Shown: in pieces, positions 3,651-45,145 of the stretch
How the letters are laid out: the number at the start of each line of letters is the position of its first letter
Numbering within the stretch: position 1 is the stretch's first letter
Source of the DNA: Acidobacteriota bacterium
GTDB taxonomy: Bacteria > Acidobacteriota > Aminicenantia > Aminicenantales > Saccharicenantaceae
Assembly: GCA_028749115.1 (NCBI GenBank)
Contig: JAQURD010000010.1
Location: 7,596-71,595, forward strand
Direction: 5' to 3'
Length of the DNA stretch: 64,000 nucleotides
Notes under the pieces: model-generated
What the model was told of the DNA's origin: nothing
The model's input: the letters and a program-made list of their open reading frames with translations, nothing else
The model's database searches: none
Made by a program: the position numbers and the translations under genes

Positions 3651-4679
3651 ATGAGAGTGCCTAAAACTGTTCTCGTCTTGATGTTTATCTTGTTTCTTGC
3701 CGTTTCTCTGCCAGCCCAGCTTAAGTTTAATGGTTATTTTTCTTATGAATATTTAAAAAGCCAGAAAGATGGCTTCTATCCTACCGGCACTTTTGACAAT
3801 CTTAATGGTGGGATGCTTCTCTCCGGATCAATTTCTGGCCCGCTAACCTTTAAACTGGAAGCCCTTTTTGACCAGGATGAAAAATTTGATCTGCATCAGG
3901 CTTATATAAATCTGCAAGTCAGCGAAGCCTTTATTTTTAAAATCGGCCGGTTTGAAGTGCCTTTCGGCCATTATAACCTTTACGCCCAGCCGGATAAAAA
4001 CGAAACTGTTTTCCGGCCATTGCCTTTTCACTTTTTCCCTTATCGCTGGGCAGATATTGGCTTTGCCTGGGAAGGAAATTACCACCATTCTATCTACTAT
4101 TCAGTTTATGCTATCAACGGACTGTCGGTTGATGATGATGGCTATCTTGAAACCCCGGCTACCGATATTAATAAAAACAAAGGTCTGGGCGGCCGGCTGG
4201 CCCTGAGAGTGGGCGAGGGGTTTGAAGCGGGCGGGTCATTTTATAGTGGAAGATATGACACCTCCAACTCAAAAAATATCAGATTTGAGGGATTCGATCT
4301 CACCTGGGTAACTACTGGCTGGGAAATCAAGGGTGAGTATGTCAGAACAGAAGTGAAGCATCCTTTTTTAAATGAGACACTCGACTTCGACGGTTACTAC
4401 TTTACAGTGGCTATTATTTTTAGAAACTTTAAGCCTTATTTCAGCTATCAATATTCGATGTTGCCCAACTCGCGCCTGGACGATGAACATGCCCCGCCTT
4501 TAAATGTACTGATTGAAACGATGGTCAAGAAGGATAGAAAAGCCATAGGTTGCAAGTTTGATTTTTTAGAAAATTTTTATGCCAAATTCGAATTTGACTG
4601 GAATAAGGAAAAAAGTCTTGATGGCCCATCTCAGTTAAAAGATAATGCCTATTCTATTCAAATCGGATTTGTTTTCTGA
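3651..4679 (+). CDS. secreted protein, probable outer-membrane beta-barrel (porin-like)
   Basis: Signal peptide MRVPKTVLVLMFILFLAVSLPAQ; aromatic-rich alternating pattern; C-terminal ...IQIGFVF ending in Phe. Confidence 0.45.
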   Translation: MRVPKTVLVLMFILFLAVSLPAQLKFNGYFSYEYLKSQKDGFYPTGTFDNLNGGMLLSGSISGPLTFKLEALFDQDEKFDLHQAYINLQVSEAFIFKIGRFEVPFGHYNLYAQPDKNETVFRPLPFHFFPYRWADIGFAWEGNYHHSIYYSVYAINGLSVDDDGYLETPATDINKNKGLGGRLALRVGEGFEAGGSFYSGRYDTSNSKNIRFEGFDLTWVTTGWEIKGEYVRTEVKHPFLNETLDFDGYYFTVAIIFRNFKPYFSYQYSMLPNSRLDDEHAPPLNVLIETMVKKDRKAIGCKFDFLENFYAKFEFDWNKEKSLDGPSQLKDNAYSIQIGFVF

Positions 4680-7783: not shown

Positions 7784-10700
7784 ATGGAGCGAGGCAAAGA
7801 GAATGAAAAGAAGGGCAAGCGGCGGCGATGGCTAAGAGTTACTGTCTGGCTGGCAGGCGGGATAGTAGCCTTAATCATACTGCTGACCTTGCTGGCCAGC
7901 ACGCCACCGGGTAGCCGGCTAATTTTAAACCAGACTGGAAAATGGCTGAAAGACAAAACCGGTTACCAGCTGGAAGCCGGCGGCTTGCGTCTAAATCTCT
8001 TCCGCCTTAAGGCCAGCCTGTCTGGCCTTCGCCTTGAGTCGGTTACTCCAGGCCAGTTGCCGTCAGGCTCTTTGACCTGCGATCGCCTCTCTCTTCAAGT
8101 TGCCTGGTCAACCCTGACCGGTGGGTCAATTAGAATAAAAAATCTTGAAATTAAAAAACCCGTAGCTTATTTAAGGCCGGCTGCTAAAAGTTCGGAGGCT
8201 AAATCACCTGAAGAAGCCCCGCTAAGTACTAGCCACGAGGCAGCCAAACCTTTAGCTTTTCGTCTCGATCATTTTCTACTGGAAGACGGAGAGTTTTCCT
8301 ATAAAGACAAGCCCGGCCGGTTGACAATGAGTCTTTCTGATCTGCAAGCAGCTATTAAATTTGATGAAGCAGGTAACTCCCACCTGGCCGAAATTCAAAC
8401 AGGCCAGGGCAGCTTTGTTTTTGGTGGGAGACAGGTTAATCTGGATTCTTTAAAATTAAAAGCCTCACTCACAGACGATAAAATTAAAATAGAAAACTTA
8501 AACATCAAGGCCATTGGCTCAGAATTCTTTATATCAGGTGAAATTAATGATTATCTAAATAAGCCAGATCTGGCACTTTTGAGTTCAGGTAAAATTAATC
8601 TGTCTGAAGTCAGTGCTTTAATTGGTCCGCCTGATTCTTTTTCTGGCCTGGTCGGCTGGAAATTAAAAGCTCATGGGTCAATTGACTGGCCGCTGATTTC
8701 AGGGGAAATAACCGGCCAGAATTTAAAGGTCATGAATTTGACCAGCGTCGAGCTAAAGGCGGACCTCGAACCAGAAAGTGATTCTTCTACCCGGATTAAA
8801 GCCGGAATTAATCTAACACCGGGTTCAATGGCTATTGAGGCGATGATTCCCCGGGCTTTAAAAGGTGATTTTACGGGGAGGGTTGATTTTAGCCAGCTTC
8901 CCCTTAATGATATTTTTGCTTTTCTCCCTGATTTACCTGTAGCATCTGACTCTTTACTTAATGGCTATGTTGAACTGTCTGGACAGAACCTTAACCTTCA
9001 GGAAATTAAGGCACAAAGCCAGTTAAGTCTTCAGGCTGGAAAGGGAGAAAATGAAACTAAGCCAGGAAGTCGGCCTCTTGTCCCTTTATCAGGAAAGGTA
9101 ATAGCTTCCCTGGATAAAGGGGAAATAATCATTTCTGAGTTAAATCTTCAGACGCTGGACACCAGTCTAAGTCTTGAAGGCAGAGCAACGGAAAAGAAAC
9201 ACATTTCAGGCCGGTTGAGGCTTAAAGTTGATGATCTTAACCGGATGATTAATTCTTTAAAGTCTTCAGGCCTGGAACAGAGCCTCCCTGAATTAGGTGC
9301 CAGCTTAAAAAGCCTGCCGGAGCTAAAAGGATCATTGGGCCTCGAAGCCAGGGTGTCAGGTTCTTTTAGCCGGCCTGAACTTGAATTGAATCTGGGAGTA
9401 GAAAATCTATCTTTAAATAATCTGACTGTGCCCGGGATTAAGATAAAAGCTGATGGTAATTTAAATGGTGTTAACCTTCGTCAGTTTGAAGTGGTTTTCA
9501 GGGATGGTCAGATGACTGCCTCAGGGCGGCTGGCCAGGAATTCTGGTCGTTCAGTCTCACCCTTCAGCCTGAATGGCCAGGTTGAACTGAATAAAATTGA
9601 TTTAAGCCAGATAGCCGATTTTCTCGGTGAAAGCTATAAAAACTATATGAATGGCTGGCTGTCTGGCACAGTTTCAGCCTCTGGCCCTGTCAACTTTCTT
9701 CAATCGAATTTTAATTTGACAGTTGATCATCCTCAGATTCAAAATCTGAAAATTGATTTGCTGCAACTCAGGGGTGAATATATCAATGAGGAAATTAAAC
9801 TGGAGGAGATGCTGCTTGTCTGGCCGGGAGGTCAAATTGCTGGCCGTTTAGGCTTCAGACTGGCCACCGGTGAAATTATGGCGGATTTAAGCGGCGAGAA
9901 GTTAAAAGCCAGTTATTTTAGCTCTTTACTGCCTGCTCTTTCGGCTGGAGAGCTTGATTTTAAACTGACTGCTTCCGGTCCCTATCTTGCTCCCATCGCC
10001 GATTTAAAGATTGTCGGTCAGGGTTTTATGATCGGGCAGTTCTGGTTTCCTTATTTCGAGTTAGGAGTTAAATCTGATGGCCAGAAAGCACTGGCCAATT
10101 TCAGTGTTCCCCGCTTTAATCTCAATCTGGCCAGCCAGCTTGAACTGGCTCAGCCTTACCGGTTGACTGGTGAGATGATGATTAAAGATCTGGCGTTGGC
10201 CAATCTGGCCGGTATTCTGCCGACTGTCGAAGAGGAGGTGCCAGAGGTAGCTGTCACCGCCAGGCTGAATTTCTCTCTTCCTCTGACCAGGCCGGAGGAA
10301 GTTCAGGCTGAGTTTAGATTTGAAAATTTTGATTTTGCCGGCCTATCTGCTTTCCTGCCAGCTCTTAAAGATATGAATCCAGGCGGTGGTGCCAATGGCT
10401 CAATAAGATTAAATGGATTTTCACCTGATCTGGCTGCTACCAGCCTTGACCTGGAAATTCCTGAACTTAATCTTACACTTAATAACATTCCGGTCAAAAG
10501 TGATGGGTCATTGAGTCTTCATGTAAAAGACAGAGTCCTGGAAATAGATAGTTTCACCTTGTTAGCCCCTCATTCCCGGATTGAATTATCGGGGCGGTCT
10601 GAAATTAAAGAACTTAATAACCCCGGTCTTGATTTTTCTTTAATTGGCCAGCTTGGTATGGAAGATATCAATCCGCTCCTGTCCGGAATGTCGGCTGGCG

Positions 10701-13700
10701 GGAGAACAGACCTCCGGGTCGGCTTAAAAGGCAGCCTGCAACAGCCGGTGATTGACGGGCAGGTGGAGCTTCAACAGGTATTCTTACGCCTTCAGGATTT
10801 ACCACTGGTGGTCAGCGGAGTTCAAGGCCGGGTGACCATAGACAATTCACAATTAAAAGTTGATAAGCTGACGGGCGAAGCAAATTCAGGCAGGTTTACC
10901 GCTTCGGGCCAGGCGGATATTGGACCGTCTTTTTCTATTCCTGGAGCCAGACTGGACTTTAAGCTGTATGATTTTGATCTTAATTATCCTCCCGGGCTGA
11001 ACAGCCTGTCCAGGGCCAACCTGAGCCTGACTAAAAGGGAGAACCGCTGGCTTGCGTCGGGCAGCCTGACGGTGGTTAATGCCAGTTATCTTCAGGATTT
11101 TTATCCCAGTACTCAGGGATTAAAAATGGTTTTTACTCCGGTTTCACCTGCCGGTAGTGAACTGCCTCCTTTTCTTTATGATCTGGCTCTGGATGTTAAT
11201 CTCAGGACTATTAATAACATCATTGTCAAAAATAACCTGGCGGATCTCGAGCTCAAAGCCAATTTGAATTTAAAAGGAACGGTTCCTGCTCCAGTTCTGT
11301 CTGGCCGGGCTGAGAATGCTTATCCTGGCGAAATTATTATTGGTGATAGAAAATATACGGTCGAAAGGCTGCGGGTTGATTTTCTTGGCCGTGAGGATCT
11401 GGAGCCTAATCTGGACATTCTTCTCAAGAGTACGGTTTATGATCAGCAGGAAGAGCTGGAGGTTAGCCTGGTTCTGGCTGGAACTCCTTCAGATTTAAAA
11501 TTTTCGCTGACTTCCAATCCGTCCAGATCAACTGAAGATTTGGCTTCGCTGCTTCTTACCGGCAAAAGCTTAAAGGAGGTACAGGGCTCAGCTCTCAATA
11601 CCATTAGCGGCCAGCTCGTCCAGTTTTTCTCGAGCCCTCTGACTTCACCTGTAACCAAGACTCTTGAGAAGTGGCTCAAAGCGGAAGATGTTGTTCTGGA
11701 GCCATTGAATATTGCCACTTTGCAGGATCCAGGTGCCCGGCTGACTATCAAGAAAAGAATGACCAGAGAGGCGGCTATAACTTATTCGATCGATCTAACT
11801 AACAGCCAGAATCAAACCTGGATTTTTGATTACCAGTTGAAGCGCAATTTTTCCTTAAGAGGATTTCGCCAGGATAATGGTGTGGTTGGGGCCAACCTCA
11901 GACATAGAATTCCGATTGGAGGTAAATCCGGTAGGAAATCGTCGAGGCCAGCTACTGCCGGGAAAAAGCTGGAAAGAATAGAAATTACTGGTGATACTGC
12001 CTTTCCGCCGGACCACCTGGAAAAAGTGCTTAAATTAAAGGCCGGGAAAAAATATAATTCTTCAGACCGGGCAAAAGCTCTCAGCCGGCTGGATGCTTTC
12101 TACCGGAAAAAAGGCTATGTCAATTATAAAGTAACCACTGAGTCAGAATCTACTGACCAGGAGACTGATATCATCAAATTAAACATTCAGGCCAATCAAC
12201 CAGTTAATTTTAAATTCGGTGGTGATAAAATATCGAGAAAAATTAGAAAGAAGGTTTTAAACTCCTGGGTAAGCCGGCTGCCAGAAGAAGCCAACCTTTA
12301 TCAGCTTCGGTCAAATCTCTTAGGGGAATTAAACCGTCAGGAGTTTTACCGGGCTGAAGTCCAGATCAGCAAAAATCAAAAAATTGACAGCACTGAATAT
12401 GTCATTGATATCAAGAAAAATGGCAGGTGGAAAATAGCCTCATTCGAGCTTGAGGGCCAGCCTGTCTTTGATCCCTCTCTCCTGAAACGGGTCTTTGCTA
12501 ATTATTTTGGAGCTAAAGCTAGAGGCATATGGAACCTGGTTTATGACCGAAGGGTAGCCATTGAGCTTCTTCAGTACTTTTACCTGGAAAACGGCTATTT
12601 GAAGGCCAGGATAGGCAATCCCGTTATCGAAGAAAATGAAGCAAAAAGGCTTTTATCTATTAGATTAAAAATTGAAGCCGGGGCTCAAAGCCGGGTAGCT
12701 TCCCTGGACATGGCCGGCAATAGTTATTTTAAAGAGGACGAGTTACTGCCTGATCTGGAGTTAAAACCAGGCAGTATCTTTAGCTGGCCAGCTTTAAGCC
12801 AGTCCCGGGTGACTATCATTAATAAATACCGCGGAGCTGGTTTCAAAGAGGTCACCGTTGAAGCCAGGGCAGAGGCCAGAAAAGACAGCCCCGATTATGA
12901 AGTAAATTTCGTCATCAATGAAGGCCAGATATATAGAATTTCACAGATTGAAATAGCCGGTTCCAGACGGACAAAGCCAGCTTTCATCTTGAAGGCTGCC
13001 GGTCTTAGAACGGGTGAAGCGCTCAGCCTGGAAAGGCTGGCTGAGGCCCAGAAAAATTTATATGACACCTCTGTCTTCCAGGCAGTTAACGTCAGTTCGA
13101 CACCAGAGGAGGAGAAAAATTATCAAGAAAAAGTGACCCTGAGGCTCAGAGAAGCTCCCTGGCTAAGCTTGACTTATGGCCTTCAATATAATTCTGAAAC
13201 CTATTTTGAGGGCTTTGGCCAGGTTGATATTAATAACCTTTTCGGCCGCGGCTGGAACAGCCTCATTTATTTCAGGGCTAACTCCAGACTGCAGGAAGCC
13301 AGATTTTCTTTGAAGGTGCCCTACACCTTTTCCAGAAAGACTGATTTTCTGCTGTCCACTTATTATTCAAAATATACCAAAGACCTGTATATAACTGAGG
13401 AAATTGGAGCCAGTTTACAGCAGAAAATTATGATGATTAAAGGTTTTGACCTCAGTTGGGTTTACAAATTATCAAAAATACATGATTACGAAAAAGAACC
13501 AAGTTGGCCGTTTCCTTATGATGTGAAAGTGACCAGTTCTGAACTATCTCTTTTGCTTGGCCGGGATACCAGAGATGACCGCTTTGACCCGCACGGTGGC
13601 TCCCTGCTGTCAGTCAGTTTGAGTTATTCCCCCCGGTTTCTTGGCTCGACCCTTTCTTATTTTCGCTCTTTTTCTCAATATACCATGTACAGAGATATCT

Positions 13701-14128
13701 GGCCGGACTTTATCTGGGCTTCCTGCTACCGGCTGGGTTTAGCCAGTGCTTTTGGCGACACCTTGATTCCCAGCAAAAGATTTTTTGCTGGTGGTGGAAC
13801 AAGTATCAGGGGTTTCAAGCTGGATGCCGTTGGGCCACTCGATTTCTGGACAGGCCTGCCAGCTGGCGGGGAAGCTACTATTATCATTAACCAGGAATTG
13901 CGCTTCCCGATTTATAAAATGTTTCGCGGTGTGATTTTTCTTGATGCTGGCAATGTCTATTCAACTCTCCGGGATTTTAATCCACTTCGGCTGAGGACTG
14001 GAGCCGGACTCGGGTTGAGAATAAACACTCCGGTTGGTCTTCTCCGGGTTGATTATGGCTTCAATCTGAAACCGAGATCAGGAGAACCTCGTACTACTAT
14101 CTTCTTCAGTCTGGGGCAGGCTTTTTAA
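7784..14128 (+). CDS. TamB/AsmA-like translocation-assembly protein fused to POTRA plus Omp85 (TamA/BamA-like) beta-barrel, 2114 aa
   Basis: N-terminal signal-anchor helix (WLRVTVWLAGGIVALIILLTLL). Long repetitive beta-rich region with a DUF490-like segment (...GDRKYTVERLRVDFLGREDLEPNLDILLKSTVYDQQEELEVSLVLAGTPSDLKFSLTSNP...). Basic Gly-rich linker. POTRA domains (LERIEITGDTAFPPDHLEKVLKLKAGKKYN...). Omp85 barrel motifs RFFAGGGTSIRGF, FLDAGNVY, GLGLRINTPVGLLRVDYGFNL, with C-terminal ...SLGQAF. Confidence 0.8.
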   Translation: MERGKENEKKGKRRRWLRVTVWLAGGIVALIILLTLLASTPPGSRLILNQTGKWLKDKTGYQLEAGGLRLNLFRLKASLSGLRLESVTPGQLPSGSLTCDRLSLQVAWSTLTGGSIRIKNLEIKKPVAYLRPAAKSSEAKSPEEAPLSTSHEAAKPLAFRLDHFLLEDGEFSYKDKPGRLTMSLSDLQAAIKFDEAGNSHLAEIQTGQGSFVFGGRQVNLDSLKLKASLTDDKIKIENLNIKAIGSEFFISGEINDYLNKPDLALLSSGKINLSEVSALIGPPDSFSGLVGWKLKAHGSIDWPLISGEITGQNLKVMNLTSVELKADLEPESDSSTRIKAGINLTPGSMAIEAMIPRALKGDFTGRVDFSQLPLNDIFAFLPDLPVASDSLLNGYVELSGQNLNLQEIKAQSQLSLQAGKGENETKPGSRPLVPLSGKVIASLDKGEIIISELNLQTLDTSLSLEGRATEKKHISGRLRLKVDDLNRMINSLKSSGLEQSLPELGASLKSLPELKGSLGLEARVSGSFSRPELELNLGVENLSLNNLTVPGIKIKADGNLNGVNLRQFEVVFRDGQMTASGRLARNSGRSVSPFSLNGQVELNKIDLSQIADFLGESYKNYMNGWLSGTVSASGPVNFLQSNFNLTVDHPQIQNLKIDLLQLRGEYINEEIKLEEMLLVWPGGQIAGRLGFRLATGEIMADLSGEKLKASYFSSLLPALSAGELDFKLTASGPYLAPIADLKIVGQGFMIGQFWFPYFELGVKSDGQKALANFSVPRFNLNLASQLELAQPYRLTGEMMIKDLALANLAGILPTVEEEVPEVAVTARLNFSLPLTRPEEVQAEFRFENFDFAGLSAFLPALKDMNPGGGANGSIRLNGFSPDLAATSLDLEIPELNLTLNNIPVKSDGSLSLHVKDRVLEIDSFTLLAPHSRIELSGRSEIKELNNPGLDFSLIGQLGMEDINPLLSGMSAGGRTDLRVGLKGSLQQPVIDGQVELQQVFLRLQDLPLVVSGVQGRVTIDNSQLKVDKLTGEANSGRFTASGQADIGPSFSIPGARLDFKLYDFDLNYPPGLNSLSRANLSLTKRENRWLASGSLTVVNASYLQDFYPSTQGLKMVFTPVSPAGSELPPFLYDLALDVNLRTINNIIVKNNLADLELKANLNLKGTVPAPVLSGRAENAYPGEIIIGDRKYTVERLRVDFLGREDLEPNLDILLKSTVYDQQEELEVSLVLAGTPSDLKFSLTSNPSRSTEDLASLLLTGKSLKEVQGSALNTISGQLVQFFSSPLTSPVTKTLEKWLKAEDVVLEPLNIATLQDPGARLTIKKRMTREAAITYSIDLTNSQNQTWIFDYQLKRNFSLRGFRQDNGVVGANLRHRIPIGGKSGRKSSRPATAGKKLERIEITGDTAFPPDHLEKVLKLKAGKKYNSSDRAKALSRLDAFYRKKGYVNYKVTTESESTDQETDIIKLNIQANQPVNFKFGGDKISRKIRKKVLNSWVSRLPEEANLYQLRSNLLGELNRQEFYRAEVQISKNQKIDSTEYVIDIKKNGRWKIASFELEGQPVFDPSLLKRVFANYFGAKARGIWNLVYDRRVAIELLQYFYLENGYLKARIGNPVIEENEAKRLLSIRLKIEAGAQSRVASLDMAGNSYFKEDELLPDLELKPGSIFSWPALSQSRVTIINKYRGAGFKEVTVEARAEARKDSPDYEVNFVINEGQIYRISQIEIAGSRRTKPAFILKAAGLRTGEALSLERLAEAQKNLYDTSVFQAVNVSSTPEEEKNYQEKVTLRLREAPWLSLTYGLQYNSETYFEGFGQVDINNLFGRGWNSLIYFRANSRLQEARFSLKVPYTFSRKTDFLLSTYYSKYTKDLYITEEIGASLQQKIMMIKGFDLSWVYKLSKIHDYEKEPSWPFPYDVKVTSSELSLLLGRDTRDDRFDPHGGSLLSVSLSYSPRFLGSTLSYFRSFSQYTMYRDIWPDFIWASCYRLGLASAFGDTLIPSKRFFAGGGTSIRGFKLDAVGPLDFWTGLPAGGEATIIINQELRFPIYKMFRGVIFLDAGNVYSTLRDFNPLRLRTGAGLGLRINTPVGLLRVDYGFNLKPRSGEPRTTIFFSLGQAF

Positions 14129-14134
14129 GGTTTT

Positions 14135-14782
14135 TCAACCAATCTTGCTGAGCAGGCTTTTAACCTGAGCTGCTTCGGGTGCATTGGGAGCCAGCTGGAC
14201 AAAGTTGTTGAAGTGGACAATCATCAAGTCCTTCCGGCCTTTCTGGTTATAAGCCAGCGCTAACTGATAATGGCCATAAGCGTGAGTGCCTCTAAGCTGC
14301 AGGCATTTTTCCAGGTCAGCAATGGCCAGGTCAAGTTTCTTCTGGTAGCCGCGGAGGAGCCCCCGGTGAAAATAGGCCTCAGCGCAGTTCGGGTCTTTTT
14401 GAATAGCCAGATTGAGCTGGGTTTCAGCACTGGCATAATTAGACTTTCTTATATAATACTGTCCTTTACCGATATAACCATAGGGAGAATTGGGATCGCT
14501 CTGCACAATCTTATTAAAATAAGTCAGGGCTGCTTCAGGATTGTTCTTCTTGATTAAAACTGAACCGAGATAATAGTAAAGATCGTTATTGACATAATTT
14601 TCGGTAATGAGTTTATCAAAGATAGCCTTTGCCTGATCTGTCTGTCCGCCTTCAAAAAGGGCGATGCCAGATTTTAGCCTGTCTAATTGGCTGGTCTGAG
14701 CAACAGCCATTTGACCCAGGAAGAAAATAGCCAGGATGAAAACAAAAAGTCTTAAATAAGCAGCCTCATTTGTTTTCTTCAT
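14135..14782 (-). CDS. TPR-repeat secreted/lipoprotein-like protein
   Basis: Signal peptide; multiple 34-aa TPR-like repeats (AxxYxxxG patterns). Confidence 0.7.
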   Translation of the reverse strand: MKKTNEAAYLRLFVFILAIFFLGQMAVAQTSQLDRLKSGIALFEGGQTDQAKAIFDKLITENYVNNDLYYYLGSVLIKKNNPEAALTYFNKIVQSDPNSPYGYIGKGQYYIRKSNYASAETQLNLAIQKDPNCAEAYFHRGLLRGYQKKLDLAIADLEKCLQLRGTHAYGHYQLALAYNQKGRKDLMIVHFNNFVQLAPNAPEAAQVKSLLSKIG

Positions 14783-35589: not shown

Positions 35590-36723
35590 ATGAAAAAATT
35601 TGTGTTGAGACTCTTCTTGGTTGAGTCGGCTGTTATTTTTTTGATTTTTTCTTCAGTTTTGCTAAAAGCTGATGATATAAAGATCAGGATCGAAAACGGC
35701 ATAGAGGTTATTTATAACCCAGAAAAGCCCGTTCCTCCCAAGGGCTCAGCGGCCAAGATTGTACTTAGACAGGAATTCTCAATTGGAGTGGGAAGGTTTG
35801 ATGAGGATAGGTTTGGAGAGTTGACCTCTATGGATGTAGATAGTGATGGAAACATATATATTCTGGACGGCAAGGAGAAAAGGATAAAGGTCTTTGACAG
35901 TGCCGGGAAGATTATAAATAAATTTGGGAAGGAAGGCCAGGGGCCAGGTGAGCTGAACTTACCTGTGTCTCTTCAAATAACTCCTGCCAGAGAAATAGTC
36001 ATTGGTGATGCCTCAAACCAGAAATTGATGTTTTTTTCTCTTGAGGGGAAGTTCTTGAGAGAAATGTCTACGGCTACAAAGGCTCGGGGTCTGGTTCTCC
36101 CTTTATTTGATTCTCAGGGAAATATCATTGGACAGCAGATTGTGCAAGCTGAGGGAAAGATTATCCGTGAAGTCAGAAAATATGACCACGAGTTGAATTC
36201 GCTCTTTACCATGGCTTCGGTGGATATTACAGGTGTTATACAGGGGAAAATCGATCCTTTCCGCATGGTATTTTCTTATCAGTTTGGAAAGGATAATATC
36301 ATCTATTGCAGTGACTTGGATAAATATGAAATTGAGATCTTCAGTCCAGAAGGGAAACTGATCAAAAGAATATTGAAAGACTATGTTCCCGTTAAACTAA
36401 GGGAAAAAGATAAAGAAGAATTTTTTGGCCGAATGCCGGAAATAGACCCTCAAGCTAAAGGGAGAATAAAGTTTTCAGAATATTTTCCTGCTTATCAGAA
36501 TTTTACCATGGACGAGCAGTGGAGGTTATTTGTCAGGACATTCGAGAAAGGAAAAAACAAAGGAGAGTACTACCTGGATGTGTTCGATGAAGAAGGAAAG
36601 TACATAGCGAAATTCTCCTTCAAAGGAGAGCCCCGGGCCTGGAGAGGAAACAAACTATATGCTATGGAGGAAGATGAGAGCGGATTTCAAACATTAAAGA
36701 TCTACAGTGTCTGCTGGGAATGA
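35590..36723 (+). CDS. secreted NHL-repeat / 6-bladed beta-propeller-like protein
   Basis: Signal peptide; repeated ...DxDGNIYIxD... blades. Confidence 0.55.
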   Translation: MKKFVLRLFLVESAVIFLIFSSVLLKADDIKIRIENGIEVIYNPEKPVPPKGSAAKIVLRQEFSIGVGRFDEDRFGELTSMDVDSDGNIYILDGKEKRIKVFDSAGKIINKFGKEGQGPGELNLPVSLQITPAREIVIGDASNQKLMFFSLEGKFLREMSTATKARGLVLPLFDSQGNIIGQQIVQAEGKIIREVRKYDHELNSLFTMASVDITGVIQGKIDPFRMVFSYQFGKDNIIYCSDLDKYEIEIFSPEGKLIKRILKDYVPVKLREKDKEEFFGRMPEIDPQAKGRIKFSEYFPAYQNFTMDEQWRLFVRTFEKGKNKGEYYLDVFDEEGKYIAKFSFKGEPRAWRGNKLYAMEEDESGFQTLKIYSVCWE

Positions 36724-36964
36724 TGGCTATGTCTTGGAATCTATTCATGCTGATTGTTATTCTTTAGATTGAGACGGCAAGGTGCATCCTTCTATTCTGG
36801 GTCATGGGTTATTGAGGGTATCTAATTAGCTAAGTAAGAAAGGGATACTAGTTTCAGGGGGGAGGAGTATGCTCAATTCGGCAGAGGCGTAATCTGGAAA
36901 CAGTTAAGAAGAGGTTGAAGGTACTAAAGGAGAAAGCAGCGAAAGGAGGCCTAGTCCATATACT

Positions 36965-37495
36965 GAGAGGCAGCTTCAGTCCTTAGAGAATTTGAGAGGG
37001 AGCGAGAGGAAAGTCTGGAAGAGATTGAGACTTACCATCCTGGGTATCTAATAGCCCAGGACACTTACTTTGTGGACTAGATATTAAGAGTGCGTGGCGA
37101 ATTTATCAGCAGACTGTTCTTGATACTTACTCCAGTGTAGCTTTCGCTAAGGTTTACACAGCTAAGGTGCCATTGACGGCGGCTGATCTGTTGAATGACC
37201 GCGTTCTTTTGTTTTTTAGAGATCAGGATTTGACGGTGCTGTGCGTCCTGACTGACAGAGAGACAGAATACTGCGGGGTAGCAGATAAACATCCTTTTGA
37301 AAGAGTTTTATAAAGTTGTCTTTCACTAGAAGATCTATACTATGCTGGATGAGTTACAGAAGGACCTTGACGCCAGCTTGAAGATATATAATAATCAGCG
37401 CACGCATCAAGGGAAACGGTGCCAGAGTCGGACACCGATGGAAACGTTTATTGCTGGAATAGAGCTCGATAGACAAATAATTTAGCCCGGGAATT
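36965..37495 (+). pseudogene. degraded DDE (rve-core) transposase remnant, IS481-like
   Basis: Recognisable ...IETYHPGYLIAQDTYFVD then a frameshift, ...RIYQQTVLDTYSSVAFAKVYTAKVPLTAADLLNDRV...LTDRETEYCG then a deletion of the DDE core, then ...KIYTMLDELQKDLDASLKIYNNQRTHQGKRCQSRTPMETF with an internal TAG. Multiple frames and stops show it is non-functional. Confidence 0.6.
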
Positions 37496-37628
37496 TAATG
37501 GAGGCCCCGACACTCGTCAACTTTAGTGTTGTTTGAACTAATTTTAAGACTCAAGATACTATGATGTATTCTACTCAGACTAAAAAAATTATAAACTTAA
37601 TCTATTAGCACAAGAAGGAGAAAAAGCT

Positions 37629-38660
37629 ATGAACAAAATATTTCCAATAAATGTTAATCTCGTATTTCAGCCTCTTAAGGTTATGTTTACAACATTTAAG
37701 ATAGTTTTTACTTGGTTATTGTGGCAATTGATGTGTATGTTTTGTTTTTTTTTCATACTGGTGTCATATAAGACATCTCTTTTGATGGCAAGCATATTAG
37801 CGTTTATTTTAACTCTGATTGTTTTAATTAAGATAGCAATTCACGAATACGGACATCTAGCCGTTGCGATTAGTGAAAATAAAGGATTGGTTTCATTAAA
37901 CCTCAGAAGAGGAGGGCCTTTAGGTTTCACTGTTTGCTATTCATATTGTCCACCCTTAAATCTTTCCAGCCGGGCGGCATTCTATATGAGCGGTCCGGCT
38001 CTTTCTCTTATTTTTGATCCGGTACTATTTTGCTTGGGAGCGCTTCTTTTAAGCGAGACTATGCTTAGGCCAGGATTGTTGACGTGGAGCAATAAGTTAA
38101 TTATATTAGGTATAATTTTTGTTGTGCCGATTTTTCAAATCATACTGTCTTATGTGATATCAAAGCCATCACAGGAGGGAGGAGACTACAGCAGGTTAAA
38201 AATGCTTAATCTTATGGGTTTACCGCCAGTAAAATTTAACGATTTAATCTCGGTTTTAATAAGCATTATCAATTATACGAGAGGGAAAGGAACAATCAAT
38301 ATAAAAAAGTTGTTAGAATTGAAACCTGTTTTTAATTTTCCTTATAATATCGAAGATCAAAAAACCATAAAAATTAATTTAGATAGTACAAATCATTTTT
38401 ATATTAGGGGAAAGGAAGCGGAAGTTGGAAGGAAAATAACTGGTACACATTCTATAAGCGAAATAATAAAAGACAGCGGTAGTGACAATGAAATATTAGA
38501 AATAATAATAAAATTTTATATGTGTTATATTGTGTCAATACCGCCTATATATTCAAAAATATCACCAGAGGATTTAATTCCATTCAAGATTGACTTTATT
38601 GAATTCTATAAGAAAATGATAGCAAAATATTTTAGTTCGAGTTTCTATTTTTCTGGATGA
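37629..38660 (+). CDS. polytopic membrane protein with TM-embedded HExxH, a putative intramembrane zinc metalloprotease (S2P/M50-like)
   Basis: LIKIAIHEYGHLAVAIS inside a hydrophobic helix; many TM segments; AT-rich codon usage like the rest of the island. Confidence 0.4.
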   Translation: MNKIFPINVNLVFQPLKVMFTTFKIVFTWLLWQLMCMFCFFFILVSYKTSLLMASILAFILTLIVLIKIAIHEYGHLAVAISENKGLVSLNLRRGGPLGFTVCYSYCPPLNLSSRAAFYMSGPALSLIFDPVLFCLGALLLSETMLRPGLLTWSNKLIILGIIFVVPIFQIILSYVISKPSQEGGDYSRLKMLNLMGLPPVKFNDLISVLISIINYTRGKGTINIKKLLELKPVFNFPYNIEDQKTIKINLDSTNHFYIRGKEAEVGRKITGTHSISEIIKDSGSDNEILEIIIKFYMCYIVSIPPIYSKISPEDLIPFKIDFIEFYKKMIAKYFSSSFYFSG

Positions 38661-39006
38661 CAATAAAGTTGCTAGCTGTTAAGCTTTCTGTTAATTTCCG
38701 GAGCCAAATTATTTTGTCTGGCCAAGTACTGAGATACCCTATGAAAACATTTATGTTGTTTTCTAACGAGAATTTGCTGAGCTGGTGTATAAGAAATAGT
38801 CAGCAGACTTTCCACCTTTACAGAGTGATAATAATTATCGGATGGCCTTTTTATATTGTTTGGGGCTAAAGAGATGGTTTATGCGAAGTTTGATTTTTAA
38901 GAAAGGAAAAACCGTATTAAAACAAAAAAAAAGAGATATCAATTCAATTGACAATAAACCGTAGGAATATTAATTTTATTATCTTAATGCAAAGAAGGAG
39001 GCTGAT

Positions 39007-39201
39007 ATGGACGAAAGAGAAGAGCTAATATATGAATCACCTTTAGCAATTACAGCAAATGATGTGTTTCTATTTTCAGTCGAAGCGGGAAGTGAGGCTG
39101 CGGCAGTGGCCGTTGTGGCTGTCGTGGCGGTAGTGGCTGTTGTTGCTGTTGTTGCCGTTGTGGCTGTTGTTGCCACTGTTGCAGTACCGGCGGCATACTA
39201 G
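39007..39201 (+). CDS. candidate RiPP precursor peptide: 33-aa leader plus (V-V-A)n hydrophobic repeat core
   Basis: MDEREELIYESPLAITANDVFLFSVEAGSEAAA | VAVVAVVAVVAVVAVVAVVAVVATVAVPAAY. SD AAGGAGG 5 nt upstream. Immediately upstream of an RRE-rSAM gene on the same strand; hairpin terminator just downstream. Confidence 0.7.
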   Translation: MDEREELIYESPLAITANDVFLFSVEAGSEAAAVAVVAVVAVVAVVAVVAVVAVVATVAVPAAY

Positions 39202-39216
39202 AAAAAATCTTTTTTT

Positions 39217-39240
39217 CTGCACTCAGCAGAGTGCAGTTTA
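39217..39240 (+). terminator. putative intrinsic terminator/attenuator hairpin after the precursor gene
   Basis: CTGCACTC-agca-GAGTGCAG 8-bp stem followed by TTTA. The T-tail is weak, suggesting a partial terminator. Confidence 0.4.
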
Positions 39241-39364
39241 GCTGGGCTAAGATAAGCCTCGCCTTTTTAGGAAATATGTCGGAGATCATGTGCATTAGAA
39301 CGTGTCTGGAATTTTTAGAGTAAATAGAAGGAAGGGCAGTTTCTTTTTGAATAAGAAGTAAAAA

Positions 39365-41107
39365 ATGTTTGATGACACGAAATTGGGTTTGGGCAATAAT
39401 GTCAGTGGCAATTTTTTGGCATTAACTCCAGTTCCCTTACGAGAAGCATCTTGGTATTTTGATGAAAAAACAGGTCGTGTTGTTATTTTAGTTTACCCTA
39501 AAAGGCTAATATTAGGAAAAGCTCAGTCTATGATTTGGAAACATGTTGATGGATTCAATACTGTTAATGATATAGCCAGTATTTTACATCATGATATGGA
39601 TATTAATGTTATCAGGGCAGCATTTAAAGAATTTGAATACAAAAACATAGCAAGAATGAAAGATATTAAAAATTCTTTTTGGGGTGATATCTCCGATAAT
39701 AATAAAAAGATAGACATAATTGAAGATCCAATGGGTTCTGATACTGGTGCTGATTTGATTTTGATAGTGCCTCCACAGTCTATAAGGTGTTTTTCGCTTG
39801 GAGCGATCAGCCTAGCACCTCCATTAGGATTGATGTATATCGCTTCAAATTTAATTTTAAATGGATATAAGGTTAAGATATTAGATCTAAGTGACAAGAC
39901 AAAACTTTCAAAAGATAGTTTTCATGATTATCTTGACAAAAACAGGCCAAAAGCTGTTGGAATTACTTGTTGGTCTGAATTTATGGAAAATGCTTTAGAA
40001 TTAGCCAAAACAACCAAAGAATATAATCCTGAAATAGCTGTCATCTTAGGCGGTCCACATGTTACCTTCATGGCTGACGAATGTTTTAAAGAAAATGATT
40101 ATGTTGACGTAGTTTGCCGGCATGAAGGTGAATACAGTATGATAGAGTTAATGGATTTCTATAAATGGAAAAAGGGTTCTTTGCAAGATATTTTAGGCAT
40201 AACATATCGTGAGCAGAAAACAGGTTCTGTCGTACGTAATCGAAGTAGAGCCTTTATAAAAGAATTAGATGAATTACCATTTCCAGCCCGCCATCTGATA
40301 GATTTCTCAAAGTATACAAAGCCTATGTTTATGATCACTAGCAGAGGCTGCACAGGTAAATGTAAATTTTGTGCAGGGACTACAATGGGGAGACGATATA
40401 GATTTAGACATCCTGATAAGGTTGCACAAGAAATAGAAGAGATAATTAGAGATTATAAACCAGAGGAGATTTATATTGTAGATGATGCCTTTACTATTAT
40501 TCCTGATCGTGCAAAAGAGATCTGCGCTTACTTAAAAAACTCGGATATAAGATGGTTCTGTGAATCACGAGTTGATGCTGTAAACGAAGAATTACTAAGG
40601 ATATTTTATGAATCTGGCTGTAGATATATTCAATTCGGAATAGAATCTGGCTCTCAACAGATTTTAGATGCTATCAAAAAGGAAACGACTTTAACAGAGG
40701 TCGAAAATGCCGTTAAATGTGCAACTGAAGCTGGCATCAAAGTAGCTTGTTCTTTCATAATAGGACACTTCGATGATACAGATGAAACAATTCAAGAAAC
40801 AATTGCACTAATGAAATATTTAAAAGACAAATATAATGTGGCTTTATTTTGTGGCCCGAATGTCATATTTCCTGGCACGTATCAGTATGCACATAGAGAG
40901 TCTTTAGGATTAGACTTTCAACTAAAATCTTGGAGTGCCAATATAATGGGGCATACAGTTACGCCAACTAAGTACCTTTCATATGAAAAACTTAGACGTT
41001 ATGTATTTGAAGCAATTGAATTATGTATGCCGACAGTCATTGATCTTGCTAAAGAGAAGAATCGTGAATTATATGGTAGTGAATGGCCAGATCGATTGGG
41101 TAGGTAA
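39365..41107 (+). CDS. B12-binding-domain radical SAM enzyme with N-terminal PqqD-like RiPP recognition element (RRE)
   Basis: N-terminal ~100 aa PqqD-like (IWKHVDGFNTVNDIASIL); cobalamin-binding-type Rossmann domain; radical SAM CTGKCKFC (CxxxCxxC) within ITSRGCTGKCKFCAG. Confidence 0.85.
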   Translation: MFDDTKLGLGNNVSGNFLALTPVPLREASWYFDEKTGRVVILVYPKRLILGKAQSMIWKHVDGFNTVNDIASILHHDMDINVIRAAFKEFEYKNIARMKDIKNSFWGDISDNNKKIDIIEDPMGSDTGADLILIVPPQSIRCFSLGAISLAPPLGLMYIASNLILNGYKVKILDLSDKTKLSKDSFHDYLDKNRPKAVGITCWSEFMENALELAKTTKEYNPEIAVILGGPHVTFMADECFKENDYVDVVCRHEGEYSMIELMDFYKWKKGSLQDILGITYREQKTGSVVRNRSRAFIKELDELPFPARHLIDFSKYTKPMFMITSRGCTGKCKFCAGTTMGRRYRFRHPDKVAQEIEEIIRDYKPEEIYIVDDAFTIIPDRAKEICAYLKNSDIRWFCESRVDAVNEELLRIFYESGCRYIQFGIESGSQQILDAIKKETTLTEVENAVKCATEAGIKVACSFIIGHFDDTDETIQETIALMKYLKDKYNVALFCGPNVIFPGTYQYAHRESLGLDFQLKSWSANIMGHTVTPTKYLSYEKLRRYVFEAIELCMPTVIDLAKEKNRELYGSEWPDRLGR

Positions 41108-41113
41108 GACGGT

Positions 41114-42035: not shown

Positions 42036-42100
42036 CCTGCTTCTTCTAATGGCAAATTAGTGCTCTCTAATGAGACCAAAAGGTGCAGTCAAATATCAAC

Positions 42101-45128: not shown

Positions 45129-45145
45129 TGATTATCCTCGCCTGC

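What the first reader, a model, noticed from the sequence alone, without database searches (positions are those of the whole stretch)
7784..14128. Single-polypeptide TamB-like plus Omp85 (TamA/BamA-like) fusion, 2114 aa
TamB (an inner-membrane anchored, periplasm-spanning AsmA-family protein) normally works with a separate Omp85 partner through its DUF490 end and the partner's POTRA domains. Here an N-terminal signal anchor, a TamB-like repetitive region with a DUF490-like segment, a basic linker, POTRA domains and a complete Omp85 barrel (RFFAGGGTSIRGF ... terminal Phe) are in one continuous frame. The order (TamB part first) is also the reverse of the usual tamA-tamB operon order, which argues against simple read-through of two genes.
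Basis: partly seen in the sequence, partly recalled or inferred. Interest (0 to 1): 0.65.

Follow-up and report, generated by a model that had tools for sequence, protein, structure and literature searches.

The report
Natural single-chain TamB–Omp85 fusion protein
This gene really does encode one 2114-residue protein that joins an inner-membrane-anchored, periplasm-spanning TamB lipid bridge to a complete BamA-like outer-membrane barrel; it is conserved across many Acidobacteriota/Aminicenantes genomes, so these bacteria build as one chain what other bacteria assemble from two proteins.

Summary
Window 7784-14128 (+) is one 2114-codon ORF encoding, in order:
- an N-terminal signal anchor
- a TamB beta-groove and DUF490 domain, including the terminal six-strand 'pseudosubstrate' segment
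- a short flexible basic linker (16-17 residues)
- five POTRA domains
- a 16-strand Omp85 barrel ending in Phe

It is not an assembly artefact. All 29 GTDB species-representative loci that reach the junction read through it in one frame. 145 of the 150 best 50%-identity cluster representatives in an exhaustive search carry both halves.

Unfused TamBs end exactly where the linker begins. Related Acidobacteriota have tamB followed by an omp85 gene with a 1-nt stop/start overlap, which is the likely precursor.

The Omp85 half groups with these TamB-partnered paralogues, not with housekeeping BamAs in bamA-skp-lpxD clusters.

Across 166 fused sequences, linker length is tightly constrained (median 17, 10th-90th percentile 15-19) but its sequence is not. 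The preceding strand keeps a beta-signal-like motif.

Best reading: a covalent, single-chain TAM spanning both membranes.

No paper in the searchable library describes it; databases label it only 'TamB domain-containing protein'.

This is a new variant of a known system, of moderate-to-high interest. Intramolecular docking into the barrel and the presence of a separate BamA remain untested.

The parts
7784..14128 (+). Whole gene: 2114-aa TamB-Omp85 fusion protein, coordinates including the stop codon
   Evidence: ORF; identical to NCBI MAG protein P0001, named 'translocation/assembly module TamB domain-containing protein [Acidobacteriota bacterium]'.
7829..7900 (+). N-terminal signal anchor (residues 16-39, WLRVTVWLAGGIVALIILLTLLAS), preceded by a Lys/Arg-rich N-terminus
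   Evidence: the only 19-mer windows with Kyte-Doolittle hydropathy above 1.6 in the whole protein. 128 of 145 long family members have the same feature; the AF2 model has a helix at residues 13-59. That the segment stays uncleaved is inferred from TamB homology.
7961..11530 (+). TamB-like repeating beta-groove ('taco') bridge, about residues 60-1249. Includes the DUF748 hit at 10-243 and the start of the DUF490 hit.
   Evidence: DUF748, TamB. (TamB NF047952, 5 stretches). (profile against E. coli TamB 9xdc_B, E = 1e-44, chain residues 126-1223). (AF2 pLDDT 82.7, about 65 consecutive strands). (weak fold hits to ApoB100 beta-belt, LptD and TamB).
10868..11881 (+). Pfam TamB/DUF490 domain hit (residues 1029-1366)
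   Evidence: E = 2.1e-31, 110 bits, profile positions 3-371 of 381.
11531..11917 (+). TamB C-terminal module (residues 1250-1378): three helices, including the conserved EDLASLLLTGK, followed by six beta strands (the 'pseudosubstrate' segment)
   Evidence: DSSP helices at model 301-349 and strands at model 353-429 (add 949 for protein numbering); nearly invariant S1255, L1256, L1257, T1259, G1260, P1316, R1319. The same layout is described for E. coli and Borrelia TamB.
11885..11917 (+). Last TamB strand (residues 1368-1378, VGANLRHRIPI). It is beta-signal-like. Unfused TamBs terminate exactly here.
   Evidence: alignment with unfused TamBs ending ...RKRHLF*...RWEKRF*...RRRKK*. (family consensus Y-R-F-E-F-R-H-D-L-R-F; final residue F in 107, L in 31 and I in 15 of 166; the next residue is G in 142 of 166).
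11918..11968 (+). Linker GGKSGRKSSRPATAGKK (residues 1379-1395): flexible, basic, conserved in length but not in sequence
   Evidence: across 166 fused proteins, median 17 aa, range 12-25, 10th-90th percentile 15-19. Rich in G/R/A/P/K/S/E, mean hydropathy -1.2, mean net charge +1.9; pLDDT about 35.
11963..13153 (+). Five POTRA domains: about residues 1394-1469, 1474-1544, 1550-1631, 1637-1712 and 1718-1790
   Evidence: five beta-alpha-alpha-beta-beta units in the AF2 model. (POTRA PF07244, 4 stretches). (Foldseek: full-length E. coli BamA, about 800 aligned columns, E = 1e-44). (Omp85-half length 716-745 aa in 90% of 166 fused proteins).
13163..14125 (+). 16-strand Omp85 barrel (residues 1794-2114), with the L6 motif RFFAGGGTSIRGF (nt 13778-13816) and C-terminal ...FFSLGQAF
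   Evidence: PF01103, E = 1.2e-42, full profile 1-325. (16 strands). (C-terminal residue F in 163 and Y in 3 of 166). (L6 is the most conserved element).
14135..14782 (-). Possible associated gene (uncertain): a secreted 215-aa TPR protein, convergent, 6 nt from the fusion gene's stop codon
   Evidence: a homologue sits in the same position in 25 of 30 loci. These include distant loci (L023, L024, L026, L028) where the other neighbours are not conserved; only generic TPR hits, with no BamD-specific match.

Best explanation

**Proposed biogenesis and layout.** The Sec system exports the chain. The N-terminal helix (residues 16-39) stays in the inner membrane. About 1200 residues fold into a TamB-type hydrophobic beta-groove that spans the periplasm. 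The TamB C-terminal module (helices plus six strands) is kept complete. A 16-17-residue flexible linker then runs into POTRA1 of a five-POTRA, 16-strand Omp85 barrel. The housekeeping BAM machine inserts that barrel into the outer membrane through its C-terminal Phe beta-signal.

**Proposed function.** It would do what TamA and TamB do together in Proteobacteria: conduct phospholipid from the inner to the outer membrane along the groove, and possibly assist assembly of some outer-membrane proteins. By analogy with E. coli, the last TamB strand would pair with barrel strand beta1. Here that pairing would be within one molecule.

**Proposed origin.** An in-frame join of a tamB-omp85 gene pair, which removed the omp85 signal peptide and its first two POTRA domains.

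**What is shown.** The architecture, its conservation, the exact junction position, the linker statistics, the precursor-like operons, and the paralogue affinity of the Omp85 half.

**What is inferred.** Topology in the two membranes, lipid transport, docking in cis, absence of cleavage, and the deletion scenario.
For: 1. The ORF is real and conserved.
- Of 30 GTDB species-representative loci, 29 reach the junction. All 29 read through it in one frame, and 23 are full length at 2106-2430 aa.
- 20 of the 57 clusters returned (identity down to 22%) proved fused when checked for both halves.
- In the exhaustive search, 145 of the 150 best 50%-identity representatives contain both the TamB C-terminal domain and the barrel, mostly as one alignment stretch across the junction.

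2. Both halves are complete.

3. Unfused TamBs stop exactly at the residue before the linker.

4. The last strand keeps an alternating, Phe-terminated motif in 166 fused proteins, and the linker length is narrowly distributed. This fits a fixed geometry rather than a random join.

5. Same-order tamB-omp85 operons with a 1-nt overlap exist in Vicinamibacterales (L035, L036) and Thermoanaerobaculia (L038). Their Omp85 proteins have about 7 POTRA domains and a signal peptide. Fused POTRA1 aligns near their residue 200.

6. A neighbour-joining tree of the last 400 residues with 200 bootstraps gave these results:
- The group {fused plus three TamB-adjacent Omp85s} separates from the two canonical BamAs specified in that test (P0284, P0294; bamA-skp-lpxD context) in 100% of replicates.
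- It separates from 20 free BamA-like proteins in 93%. That set includes P0301, also in a bamA-skp-lpxD cluster, and P0292, followed by an unannotated gene on a short contig.
- The fused proteins are never separated from the TamB-adjacent ones.

7. Published E. coli work supports feasibility.
- TamB's last strand pairs antiparallel with TamA beta1 to form a hybrid barrel (PMC12800296).
- TamB carrying a C-terminal tag is functional. TAM locked by a beta1-betaS disulfide still works, so a stable or covalent link is compatible with function (PMC13119328).

8. Heinz et al. 2015 (PMC4494059) report that Acidobacteria carry a second, TamB-linked BamA copy in addition to the canonical one.
Against: - No coordinates or PAE were available from the AF2 models, so docking of the six strands into the barrel in cis is not shown. 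pTM is only 0.49, and the six strands have pLDDT of about 60-74.
- If the last strand pairs with beta1 as in E. coli, a roughly 17-residue linker (at most about 60 Å) must reach POTRA1. That requires a curled five-POTRA arm, which is plausible but untested.
- I could not check whether the same genomes also encode a separate housekeeping BamA or an unfused TamB.
- The Omp85 half scores only just below the BamA equivalog cutoff (291.8 against 297.15 bits). Its best structural matches are BamA.
- The tree is a simple neighbour-joining tree on very divergent sequences.
- There are no expression, localisation or processing data. The unstructured basic linker could be a protease site.
Confidence: 0.7

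Rival explanations
1. The Omp85 half is the organism's housekeeping, and possibly only, BamA. In this lineage it has become covalently tethered to TamB. That would be a fused version of the ancestral BamA-TamB partnership seen in Borrelia, and would make the essential BAM core an inner-membrane-anchored protein.
For: - Five POTRA domains and a 16-strand barrel.
- The BamA equivalog TIGR03303 scores 291.8 bits, just under its 297.15 cutoff. TamA NF047950 scores only 97 against a cutoff of 625.
- The best Foldseek hits are full-length BamA.
- No other Omp85 gene lies in the 64-kb window or in the ±8 kb flanks of 30 related loci.
- BamA-TamB partnerships are documented in spirochaetes.
Against: - The barrel plus POTRA5 region groups with TamB-adjacent Omp85 paralogues and away from context-verified canonical BamAs (100% and 93% bootstrap).
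- The gene is not in a bamA-skp-lpxD cluster, unlike the canonical BamAs examined.
- Cultured Acidobacteria have a canonical BamA plus a second TamB-linked copy (PMC4494059).
- Absence from an 8-kb flank says nothing about the rest of the genome.
Confidence: 0.15
2. The product is a polyprotein. It is translated and exported as one chain, which would guarantee 1:1 stoichiometry and co-delivery. It is then cut in the flexible linker, so the mature machine is an ordinary two-chain TamB plus Omp85 complex.
For: - The linker is unstructured (pLDDT about 35).
- It is basic, rich in Gly/Pro/Ser and not conserved in sequence, so it would be accessible to proteases.
- A conserved Phe-Gly-Gly sits at the TamB end and could mark a processing point.
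- Cleavage would restore the free C-terminal Phe found on unfused TamBs.
Against: - No conserved cleavage motif exists beyond the Gly-Gly.
- Linker length is tightly constrained (15-19 aa in 80% of 166 sequences). This is expected for a structural tether and not needed for a cleavage site.
- E. coli TamB tolerates C-terminal extensions, and covalent locking to TamA, so cleavage is not required.
- I know of no such periplasmic processing for Omp85 or TamB proteins (own knowledge).
Confidence: 0.12
3. The fusion is an assembly, binning or gene-calling artefact: a missed stop or frameshift between adjacent tamB and omp85 genes.
For: - Adjacent tamB-omp85 genes with a 1-nt overlap exist in relatives, so a single-base error could in principle merge two genes.
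- Some MAGs do carry frameshifts elsewhere in this gene (L009, L019, L029 N-terminal parts; P0025 C-terminus).
Against: - 29 of 29 independent species-level genomes are in frame across the junction.
- 145 distinct 50%-identity clusters from different projects and assemblers are fused.
- The fused forms lack the omp85 signal peptide and two POTRA domains that a simple read-through would retain.
- Linker length and the FGG motif are conserved.
Confidence: 0.01

Closest known systems
E. coli TAM (TamA plus TamB); cryo-EM structures 9xdc/9xdd and nanodisc structures (PMC12800296, PMC13119328)
   Same: - N-terminal inner-membrane anchor, long hydrophobic beta-groove and DUF490.
- A C-terminal helix plus six strands whose last strand pairs with barrel beta1.
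- An Omp85 partner with POTRA domains and a 16-strand barrel.
- The profile of the TamB part hits E. coli TamB at E = 1e-44.
   Different: - One polypeptide instead of two.
- The TamB C-terminus is not free.
- Five POTRA domains instead of three.
- The Omp85 signal peptide is absent.
- Both the TamA and TamB equivalog HMMs fall far below cutoff (97 of 625 and 90.5 of 825 bits).
- Gene order is TamB first.
Acidobacterial TamB-linked 'second BamA' (Heinz et al. 2015, PMC4494059), and the tamB-omp85 operons found here (L035, L036, L038) and omp85-surA_N-tamB (L037)
   Same: - Same phylum.
- The Omp85 halves group together in the tree.
- TamB ends at the same strand.
- In L035 and L038 the gene order is the same as in the fusion, and the stop and start codons overlap by 1 nt.
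   Different: - They are separate genes.
- Their Omp85 proteins have a signal peptide and about 7 POTRA domains (939-1026 aa), against 5 POTRA domains in the fusion.
- Heinz et al. describe the BamA-TamB order and mention no fusion.
Borrelia burgdorferi BamA-TamB hybrid BAM-TAM (PMC5582053, PMC11361582, PMC13382580)
   Same: - TamB works with a five-POTRA BamA-type Omp85.
- Gene order is tamB-bamA.
- The model has the TamB C-terminal strands completing the BamA barrel, with POTRA1 close to POTRA5.
   Different: - The partner there is the sole housekeeping BamA.
- The two proteins are separate chains.
LptD (LPS translocon): a beta-jellyroll bridge end covalently joined to an outer-membrane barrel
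   Same: - The design logic is shared: the last segment of a periplasmic lipid bridge and the outer-membrane barrel that receives the lipid are one polypeptide (for the Lpt description).
- LptD appears among weak fold hits to the TamB part.
   Different: - Both the bridge and the barrel are unrelated folds and families.
- LptD covers only the outer-membrane end of the bridge, whereas this protein runs from inner membrane to outer membrane in one chain.
Other N-terminally extended Omp85 proteins (PlpD patatin-Omp85; WD40/BamB-like-Omp85) in Heinz & Lithgow 2014, PMC4104836
   Same: An Omp85 barrel fused to a functional partner domain at its N-terminus. The authors read the WD40 case as a BamA-BamB-like fusion.
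   Different: Their ten subfamilies include no TamB/DUF490-Omp85 class. The added part here is about 1380 residues long and anchored in the inner membrane.
Chloroplast TIC236-TOC75
   Same: A TamB homologue anchored in the inner envelope membrane, partnered with an Omp85 protein in the outer envelope membrane (abstracts listed).
   Different: Two separate proteins, eukaryotic organelle, acting in protein import.

Membership tests
TamB / AsmA-like bridge proteins (Pfam PF04357 DUF490; NCBIfam NF047952) | DUF490/TamB domain above the Pfam gathering score | tested here: met
   110 bits against a cutoff of 22.4; residues 1029-1366 cover profile positions 3-371 of 381.
TamB / AsmA-like bridge proteins (Pfam PF04357 DUF490; NCBIfam NF047952) | Single N-terminal signal-anchor helix | tested here: met
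   the only hydrophobic segment is at residues 16-39, after a Lys/Arg-rich N-terminus; 128 of 145 long family members share it; helix at 13-59. Whether it is left uncleaved was not tested.
TamB / AsmA-like bridge proteins (Pfam PF04357 DUF490; NCBIfam NF047952) | Long continuous beta-rich groove homologous to TamB along most of its length | tested here: met
   profile against E. coli TamB 9xdc_B, E = 1e-44, chain residues 126-1223; about 65 strands plus further strands, pLDDT 82.7 and 75.8. A hydrophobic groove interior could not be inspected because no coordinates were returned.
TamB / AsmA-like bridge proteins (Pfam PF04357 DUF490; NCBIfam NF047952) | C-terminal helix plus six beta strands, ending in a beta-signal-like strand | tested here: met
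   (helices, then six strands at residues 1302-1378). (last strand aligned with the termini of unfused TamBs; Phe, Leu or Ile at the end in 153 of 166).
TamB / AsmA-like bridge proteins (Pfam PF04357 DUF490; NCBIfam NF047952) | Free C-terminus, with the partner Omp85 as a separate protein | tested here: not met
   the chain continues through the linker into POTRA1.
TamB / AsmA-like bridge proteins (Pfam PF04357 DUF490; NCBIfam NF047952) | NCBIfam TamB equivalog score of at least 825 bits | tested here: not met
   90.5 bits. It is a family-level relative, not the proteobacterial equivalog.
TamB / AsmA-like bridge proteins (Pfam PF04357 DUF490; NCBIfam NF047952) | [quoted passage not shown] | not testable with these tools
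   Inferred from E. coli work.
BamA (housekeeping Omp85; TIGR03303) | Five POTRA domains plus a 16-strand barrel with the L6 (V/I)RG(F/Y) motif and a C-terminal aromatic residue | tested here: met
   (IRGF at 2008-2011; terminal F).
BamA (housekeeping Omp85; TIGR03303) | Equivalog HMM score at or above the cutoff | tested here: not met
   291.8 against 297.15 bits, a narrow miss. The model match starts at position 82.
BamA (housekeeping Omp85; TIGR03303) | Own cleavable signal peptide | tested here: not met
   a hydrophilic linker (mean hydropathy -1.2) occupies that position.
BamA (housekeeping Omp85; TIGR03303) | Groups with canonical BamAs; bamA-skp-lpxD genomic context | tested here: not met
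   (separated from canonical BamAs in 100% and 93% of bootstraps). (the neighbours are purA, alr, a PAS protein, a TPR protein and a CDF transporter). Compare.
BamA (housekeeping Omp85; TIGR03303) | Sole or essential Omp85 of the genome | not testable with these tools
   Only ±8 kb flanks of related genomes and this 64-kb window could be read.
TamA (NF047950) | Three POTRA domains; equivalog HMM at or above 625 bits | tested here: not met
   97 bits; five POTRA domains throughout the fused family.
TamA (NF047950) | Dedicated Omp85 partner of TamB | tested here: met
   It is physically fused to TamB. It clusters with Omp85 genes adjacent to tamB.
TamA (NF047950) | Hybrid barrel: TamB's last strand paired with barrel beta1 | tested here: inconclusive
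   Both strands are present and conserved. The AF2 output gave no coordinates or contacts, and pTM was 0.49.

The most novel reading that the evidence does not exclude
The mature protein stays uncut. If so, it is a single polypeptide integral to both membranes: an alpha-helical anchor in the inner membrane and a 16-strand beta-barrel in the outer membrane.

Its own internal 'pseudosubstrate' strand would be paired with barrel beta1. The chain would then form a closed lasso running betaS, a roughly 17-residue tether, POTRA1 to POTRA5, and beta1.

That would be natural proof that TAM works as a permanently engaged 1:1 hybrid barrel. It would mean that neither a free TamB C-terminus nor dissociation is needed. 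It would also mean the five-POTRA arm must be ring-closed.
Probability: 0.45. Interest if true: 0.75.

Novelty: new variant of a known kind. Interest (0 to 1): 0.6.

Why it matters
How TamA and TamB cooperate is an active question. The options are a stable lipid-conducting hybrid barrel, or a dynamic machine whose pseudosubstrate strand must leave the gate so that client proteins can be inserted.

A large natural family in which the two partners are one chain bears on this in several ways.
- It is 'Rosetta-stone' evidence that they act as an obligate 1:1 unit.
- The tether is short and constrained in length, which places a hard geometric limit on how far the TamB terminus can move from POTRA1.
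- It offers a single-gene, fixed-stoichiometry construct for structural and reconstitution work.
- It documents intermediate states in one phylum: omp85-surA_N-tamB, tamB-omp85 with overlapping codons, and the fusion. This is the phylum that Heinz et al. proposed as the cradle of TAM.
- It adds a class that is missing from the published Omp85 subfamily catalogue.

A polypeptide embedded in both bacterial membranes is also rare. VirB10 of type IV secretion is the example I know of (own knowledge).

Tried and rejected
- **Artefact hypothesis.** Rejected on the basis of 29 of 29 in-frame junctions and 145 fused clusters.
- **The search for related loci with broad alignments (A1, A3).** A narrower alignment (A4) worked, but it is biased towards Aminicenantes. 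The taxonomic spread seen is therefore a lower bound.
- **Second word-indexed search with the family profile.** Added no new fused members. The exhaustive search was needed to see the size of the family.
- **Separate BamA in the same genomes.**
  - None lies in the window or the flanks.
  - Four free BamA-like hits were traced to their contigs. Three sit in bamA-skp-lpxD clusters. None comes from a MAG that carries the fusion.
  - Cluster look-ups gave no organism names.
  - The question stays open.
- **Docking of the six strands in cis.** The AF2 output has no coordinates or PAE, and /data holds no model files. Foldseek is chain-wise. I considered a DCA or mutual-information test between betaS and beta1 and dropped it: 166 sequences and highly conserved strands give too little signal. 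Per-strand entropy showed that beta1 is no more conserved than in free BamAs.
- **TPR neighbour as BamD.** Only generic TPR matches were found. BamD TIGR03302 scored 20.7 bits against a cutoff of 81.4, and only in the L028 homologue.
- **Promoter and terminator scan.** Nothing convincing was found around the gene.
- **Literature.** Eight full-text searches and eight papers were read or searched for fusion, fused or Acidobacteria. No description of a natural TamB-Omp85 fusion turned up. Subscription-only papers are not covered.

Full report
**Observation**

Window 7784-14128 (+) is a single ATG-initiated ORF of 2114 codons, by far the longest in the region.

Pfam places these domains:
- DUF748 at residues 10-243.
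- TamB/DUF490 at 1029-1366 (110 bits against a cutoff of 22.4).
- POTRA repeats from residue 1396.
- A full-length Omp85 barrel at 1818-2114 (147 bits).

NCBIfam scores BamA (TIGR03303) at 291.8 bits, just under its 297.15 cutoff. The proteobacterial TamA and TamB equivalogs fall far below theirs.

The only TM-like hydrophobic segment is residues 16-39, after a Lys/Arg-rich N-terminus.

**Anatomy**

AF2 models were built with fused homologues as the alignment.

Residues 1-1050 (pLDDT 82.7) show a helix at 13-59 followed by about 65 consecutive beta strands.

Residues 950-2114 (pLDDT 75.8, pTM 0.49) show, in order:
- More groove strands.
- Three helices, including the near-invariant EDLASLLLTGK.
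- Six beta strands (residues 1302-1378).
- A low-confidence linker.
- Five beta-alpha-alpha-beta-beta POTRA units.
- Sixteen barrel strands.

Further support:
- A profile of the TamB part plus unfused TamBs hits the E. coli TamB cryo-EM chain 9xdc_B at E = 1e-44 over its residues 126-1223.
- Foldseek aligns the C-terminal model to full-length E. coli BamA over about 800 columns (E = 1e-44), ahead of TamA.
- The helix-plus-six-strand ending is the 'pseudosubstrate' module described for E. coli and Borrelia TamB.

**Is it real?**

The protein is identical to an NCBI MAG protein annotated only as 'TamB domain-containing protein [Acidobacteriota bacterium]'.

Evidence from related sequences:
- A scan of GTDB species representatives returned 30 loci. 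Nearly all are Aminicenantes/Ca. Saccharicenans MAGs; one is Ca. Marinacidobacterales, which belongs to Vicinamibacteria.
- All 29 loci that reach the junction cross it in one frame. 23 are full length, and the rest are cut by contig ends or carry N-terminal frameshifts.
- Word-indexed searches returned 57 clusters, 20 of which (identity down to 22%) proved fused when checked for both halves; one is from Vicinamibacterales. A partial Polarisedimenticolia protein with TamB and POTRA domains also appeared.
- An exhaustive phmmer search of 1.84 billion representatives with residues 950-2114 gave 150 listed hits, all at E ≤ 2.4e-124. Of these, 145 contain both the TamB C-terminal domain and the barrel, and 123 are at least 1900 aa. 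The other five are fragments.
- The list was truncated at 150, so the family is larger.

The artefact explanation is rejected.

**The junction**

I aligned 166 fused proteins with 15 unfused acidobacterial TamBs. The unfused proteins terminate exactly at the end of the sixth strand (...RKRHLF*...RWEKRF*...RIRRRKK*). That position aligns with ...NLRHRIPI in the window protein.

In the fused family:
- The strand has the consensus Y-R-F-E-F-R-H-D-L-R-F.
- Its last residue is F in 107, L in 31 and I in 15 of 166.
- The next residue is Gly in 142 of 166.
- The linker that follows has no conserved sequence. It is rich in G/R/A/P/K/S/E, hydrophilic (mean hydropathy -1.2) and slightly basic.
- Linker length is narrowly distributed: median 17, range 12-25, 10th-90th percentile 15-19.

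The Omp85 half is also uniform in length (median 729 aa, 5th-95th percentile 716-745). This means five POTRA domains throughout the family. The TamB part varies from 1162 to 1937 aa. The C-terminal residue is Phe in 163 of 166.

**Origin**

Three gene arrangements were found in the phylum:
- In a Vicinamibacterales MAG (L035, and the Logan contig L036), an unfused tamB of 1364 aa is followed by an omp85 gene of 1001 aa. The stop and start codons overlap by one base (TAATG).
- The closest truly free relative of the fused Omp85 half is P0280 from Thermoanaerobaculia. It sits in the same arrangement behind a 1309-aa tamB (L038).
- In Ca. Sulfotelmatobacter the order is omp85, surA_N-like, tamB (L037). 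This is the BamA-TamB order that Heinz et al. 2015 described for Acidobacteria.

These unfused partners carry a signal peptide and about seven POTRA domains. Fused POTRA1 aligns near their residue 200.

My inference is that one in-frame deletion could have produced the fusion. It would have removed the tamB stop codon, the omp85 signal peptide and POTRA1-2. The shared five-POTRA layout, the FGG motif and the linker length favour a single origin. The tree is too weak to prove it.

**Which Omp85?**

I built a neighbour-joining tree of the last 400 residues (POTRA5 plus barrel) with 200 bootstraps. It contained 44 fused proteins, 3 TamB-adjacent Omp85s and 26 free Omp85s.

- The group {fused plus TamB-adjacent} separates from the two canonical BamAs specified in that test (P0284, P0294; bamA-skp-lpxD-fabZ-lpxA context) in 100% of replicates.
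- It separates from 20 free BamA-like proteins in 93%. That set includes P0301, also in such a cluster, and P0292, followed by an unannotated gene on a short contig.
- Fused proteins never separate from the TamB-adjacent ones.

The fusion gene's own neighbours are purA, alr, a PAS protein, a convergent TPR protein, a CDF transporter, an MBL-fold protein and nadA. There is no skp or lpxD.

Heinz et al. report two BamA copies in Acidobacteria. Taken together, the Omp85 half is best read as the TamB-dedicated paralogue: functionally TamA-like, architecturally BamA-like. It is probably not the housekeeping BamA.

I could not confirm that a separate BamA exists in Aminicenantes genomes. None lies in the window or the ±8 kb flanks, and no other part of those genomes was accessible.

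**Mechanism (inferred)**

The proposed sequence of events:
1. The Sec system exports the chain.
2. The N-terminal helix anchors it in the inner membrane.
3. The groove spans the periplasm.
4. The C-terminal barrel is inserted by BAM through its Phe-terminated beta-signal.

In E. coli, TamB's last strand pairs antiparallel with TamA beta1. Register pairs are T267-E1258, E269-Q1256, G271-L1254 and G273-D1252. The TamB C-terminus therefore lies at the periplasmic rim, next to the junction between the last POTRA domain and the barrel.

Two further E. coli results bear on the fusion. TamB with a C-terminal tag is functional. TAM locked by a beta1-betaS disulfide still complements.

A covalent continuation after betaS is therefore compatible with the known mechanism.

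If the same pairing occurs here, I1378 would lie near L1794. The roughly 17-residue tether (at most about 60 Å) must then reach POTRA1, which requires a curled, ring-like five-POTRA arm. The Borrelia BamA-TamB model places POTRA1 near POTRA5.

The tight constraint on linker length fits such a fixed geometry. However, cis docking is not demonstrated, because the model output contained no coordinates.

**Rival explanations**

- Housekeeping BamA tethered to TamB: about 0.15.
- Polyprotein cleaved in the linker: about 0.12.
- Artefact: about 0.01.

**Comparison with what is known, and novelty**

The system works like TAM, and each half is a family-level member of TamB or Omp85. It fails the defining features 'separate partner / free C-terminus' for TamB, 'own signal peptide / canonical context and clade / equivalog score' for BamA, and 'three POTRA domains / equivalog score' for TamA.

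I searched the following and found no natural fusion described:
- Reviews and primary papers on TAM, TamL, AsmA-like proteins and Omp85 diversity.
- Heinz & Lithgow's ten Omp85 subfamilies.
- Heinz et al.'s TAM evolution paper.

The architecture is present in public databases under generic names (TamB domain-containing protein; JGI 'YaeT').

I rate it a new variant of a known kind, with interest of about 0.6. It is a natural single-chain TAM that bears directly on the current debate over the stable hybrid barrel.

Noticed in passing
window 14135-14782 (-); homologues e.g. L028:14645-15475 (-), L023:14797-15495 (-): A 215-aa secreted TPR protein (signal peptide, no lipobox Cys) lies convergent to the fusion gene, 6 nt from its stop codon. 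A homologue keeps this position in 25 of 30 related loci. These include distant loci where all other neighbours differ. It could be an accessory factor of the fused machine. Only generic TPR matches were found, with no BamD-specific hit.
   Followed up: partly
window ~36000-47000: A low-GC island (GC 0.32-0.40 against about 0.46 elsewhere) carries a RiPP-like cluster:
- B12-binding radical SAM protein (39365-41107, +)
- PqqD plus SPASM-type protein (45146-46492, -)
- ABC-2 permease and ATPase (42101-45128, -)
- HTH_21 transposase fragment (41114-41614, -)

It was possibly acquired horizontally.
   Followed up: partly
L035:8001-15100, L036:2477-9576, L038:4072-10820, L037:4214-12116: Unfused relatives show two operon types in Acidobacteriota. 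One is tamB-omp85 with a 1-nt stop/start overlap (Vicinamibacterales, Thermoanaerobaculia). The other is omp85, a 236-aa SurA_N_3 protein, then tamB (Ca. Sulfotelmatobacter). Their Omp85 proteins are 939-1026 aa with about 7 POTRA domains.
   Followed up: partly
L009:7945-8514/8460-14306, L019:3378-4121/4009-9747, L029:7845-10190/9782-14461; protein P0025: Several MAG copies of the fusion gene are split by apparent frameshifts in the TamB part. P0025 has an Arg/Pro-rich nonsense C-terminus in place of the barrel. These are probably assembly errors or pseudogenes, and none affects the junction.
   Followed up: partly
L015, L019, L023, L025, L029, L030 (record titles): Six loci carry this Aminicenantes/Acidobacteriota-type fusion gene, and L015 and L019 also share the purA-alr neighbours. 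Their source records are nevertheless titled 'uncultured Eubacteriales bacterium'. This looks like a taxonomic mislabel in the records.
   Followed up: no
window 3651-4679 (+): A 342-aa protein with a signal peptide and C-terminal Phe, and weak hits to Porin_O_P and a siderophore porin. It is a probable small outer-membrane beta-barrel, conserved upstream (before purA) in about 19 Aminicenantes loci.
   Followed up: partly
window 48645-50258 (+): An unusually long ThyX-type thymidylate synthase (537 aa) with two Thy1 stretches, which may be a tandem duplication or fusion.
   Followed up: no
window 1-64000: No tRNA genes and no Rfam family at gathering threshold were found anywhere in the 64-kb window.
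   Followed up: yes
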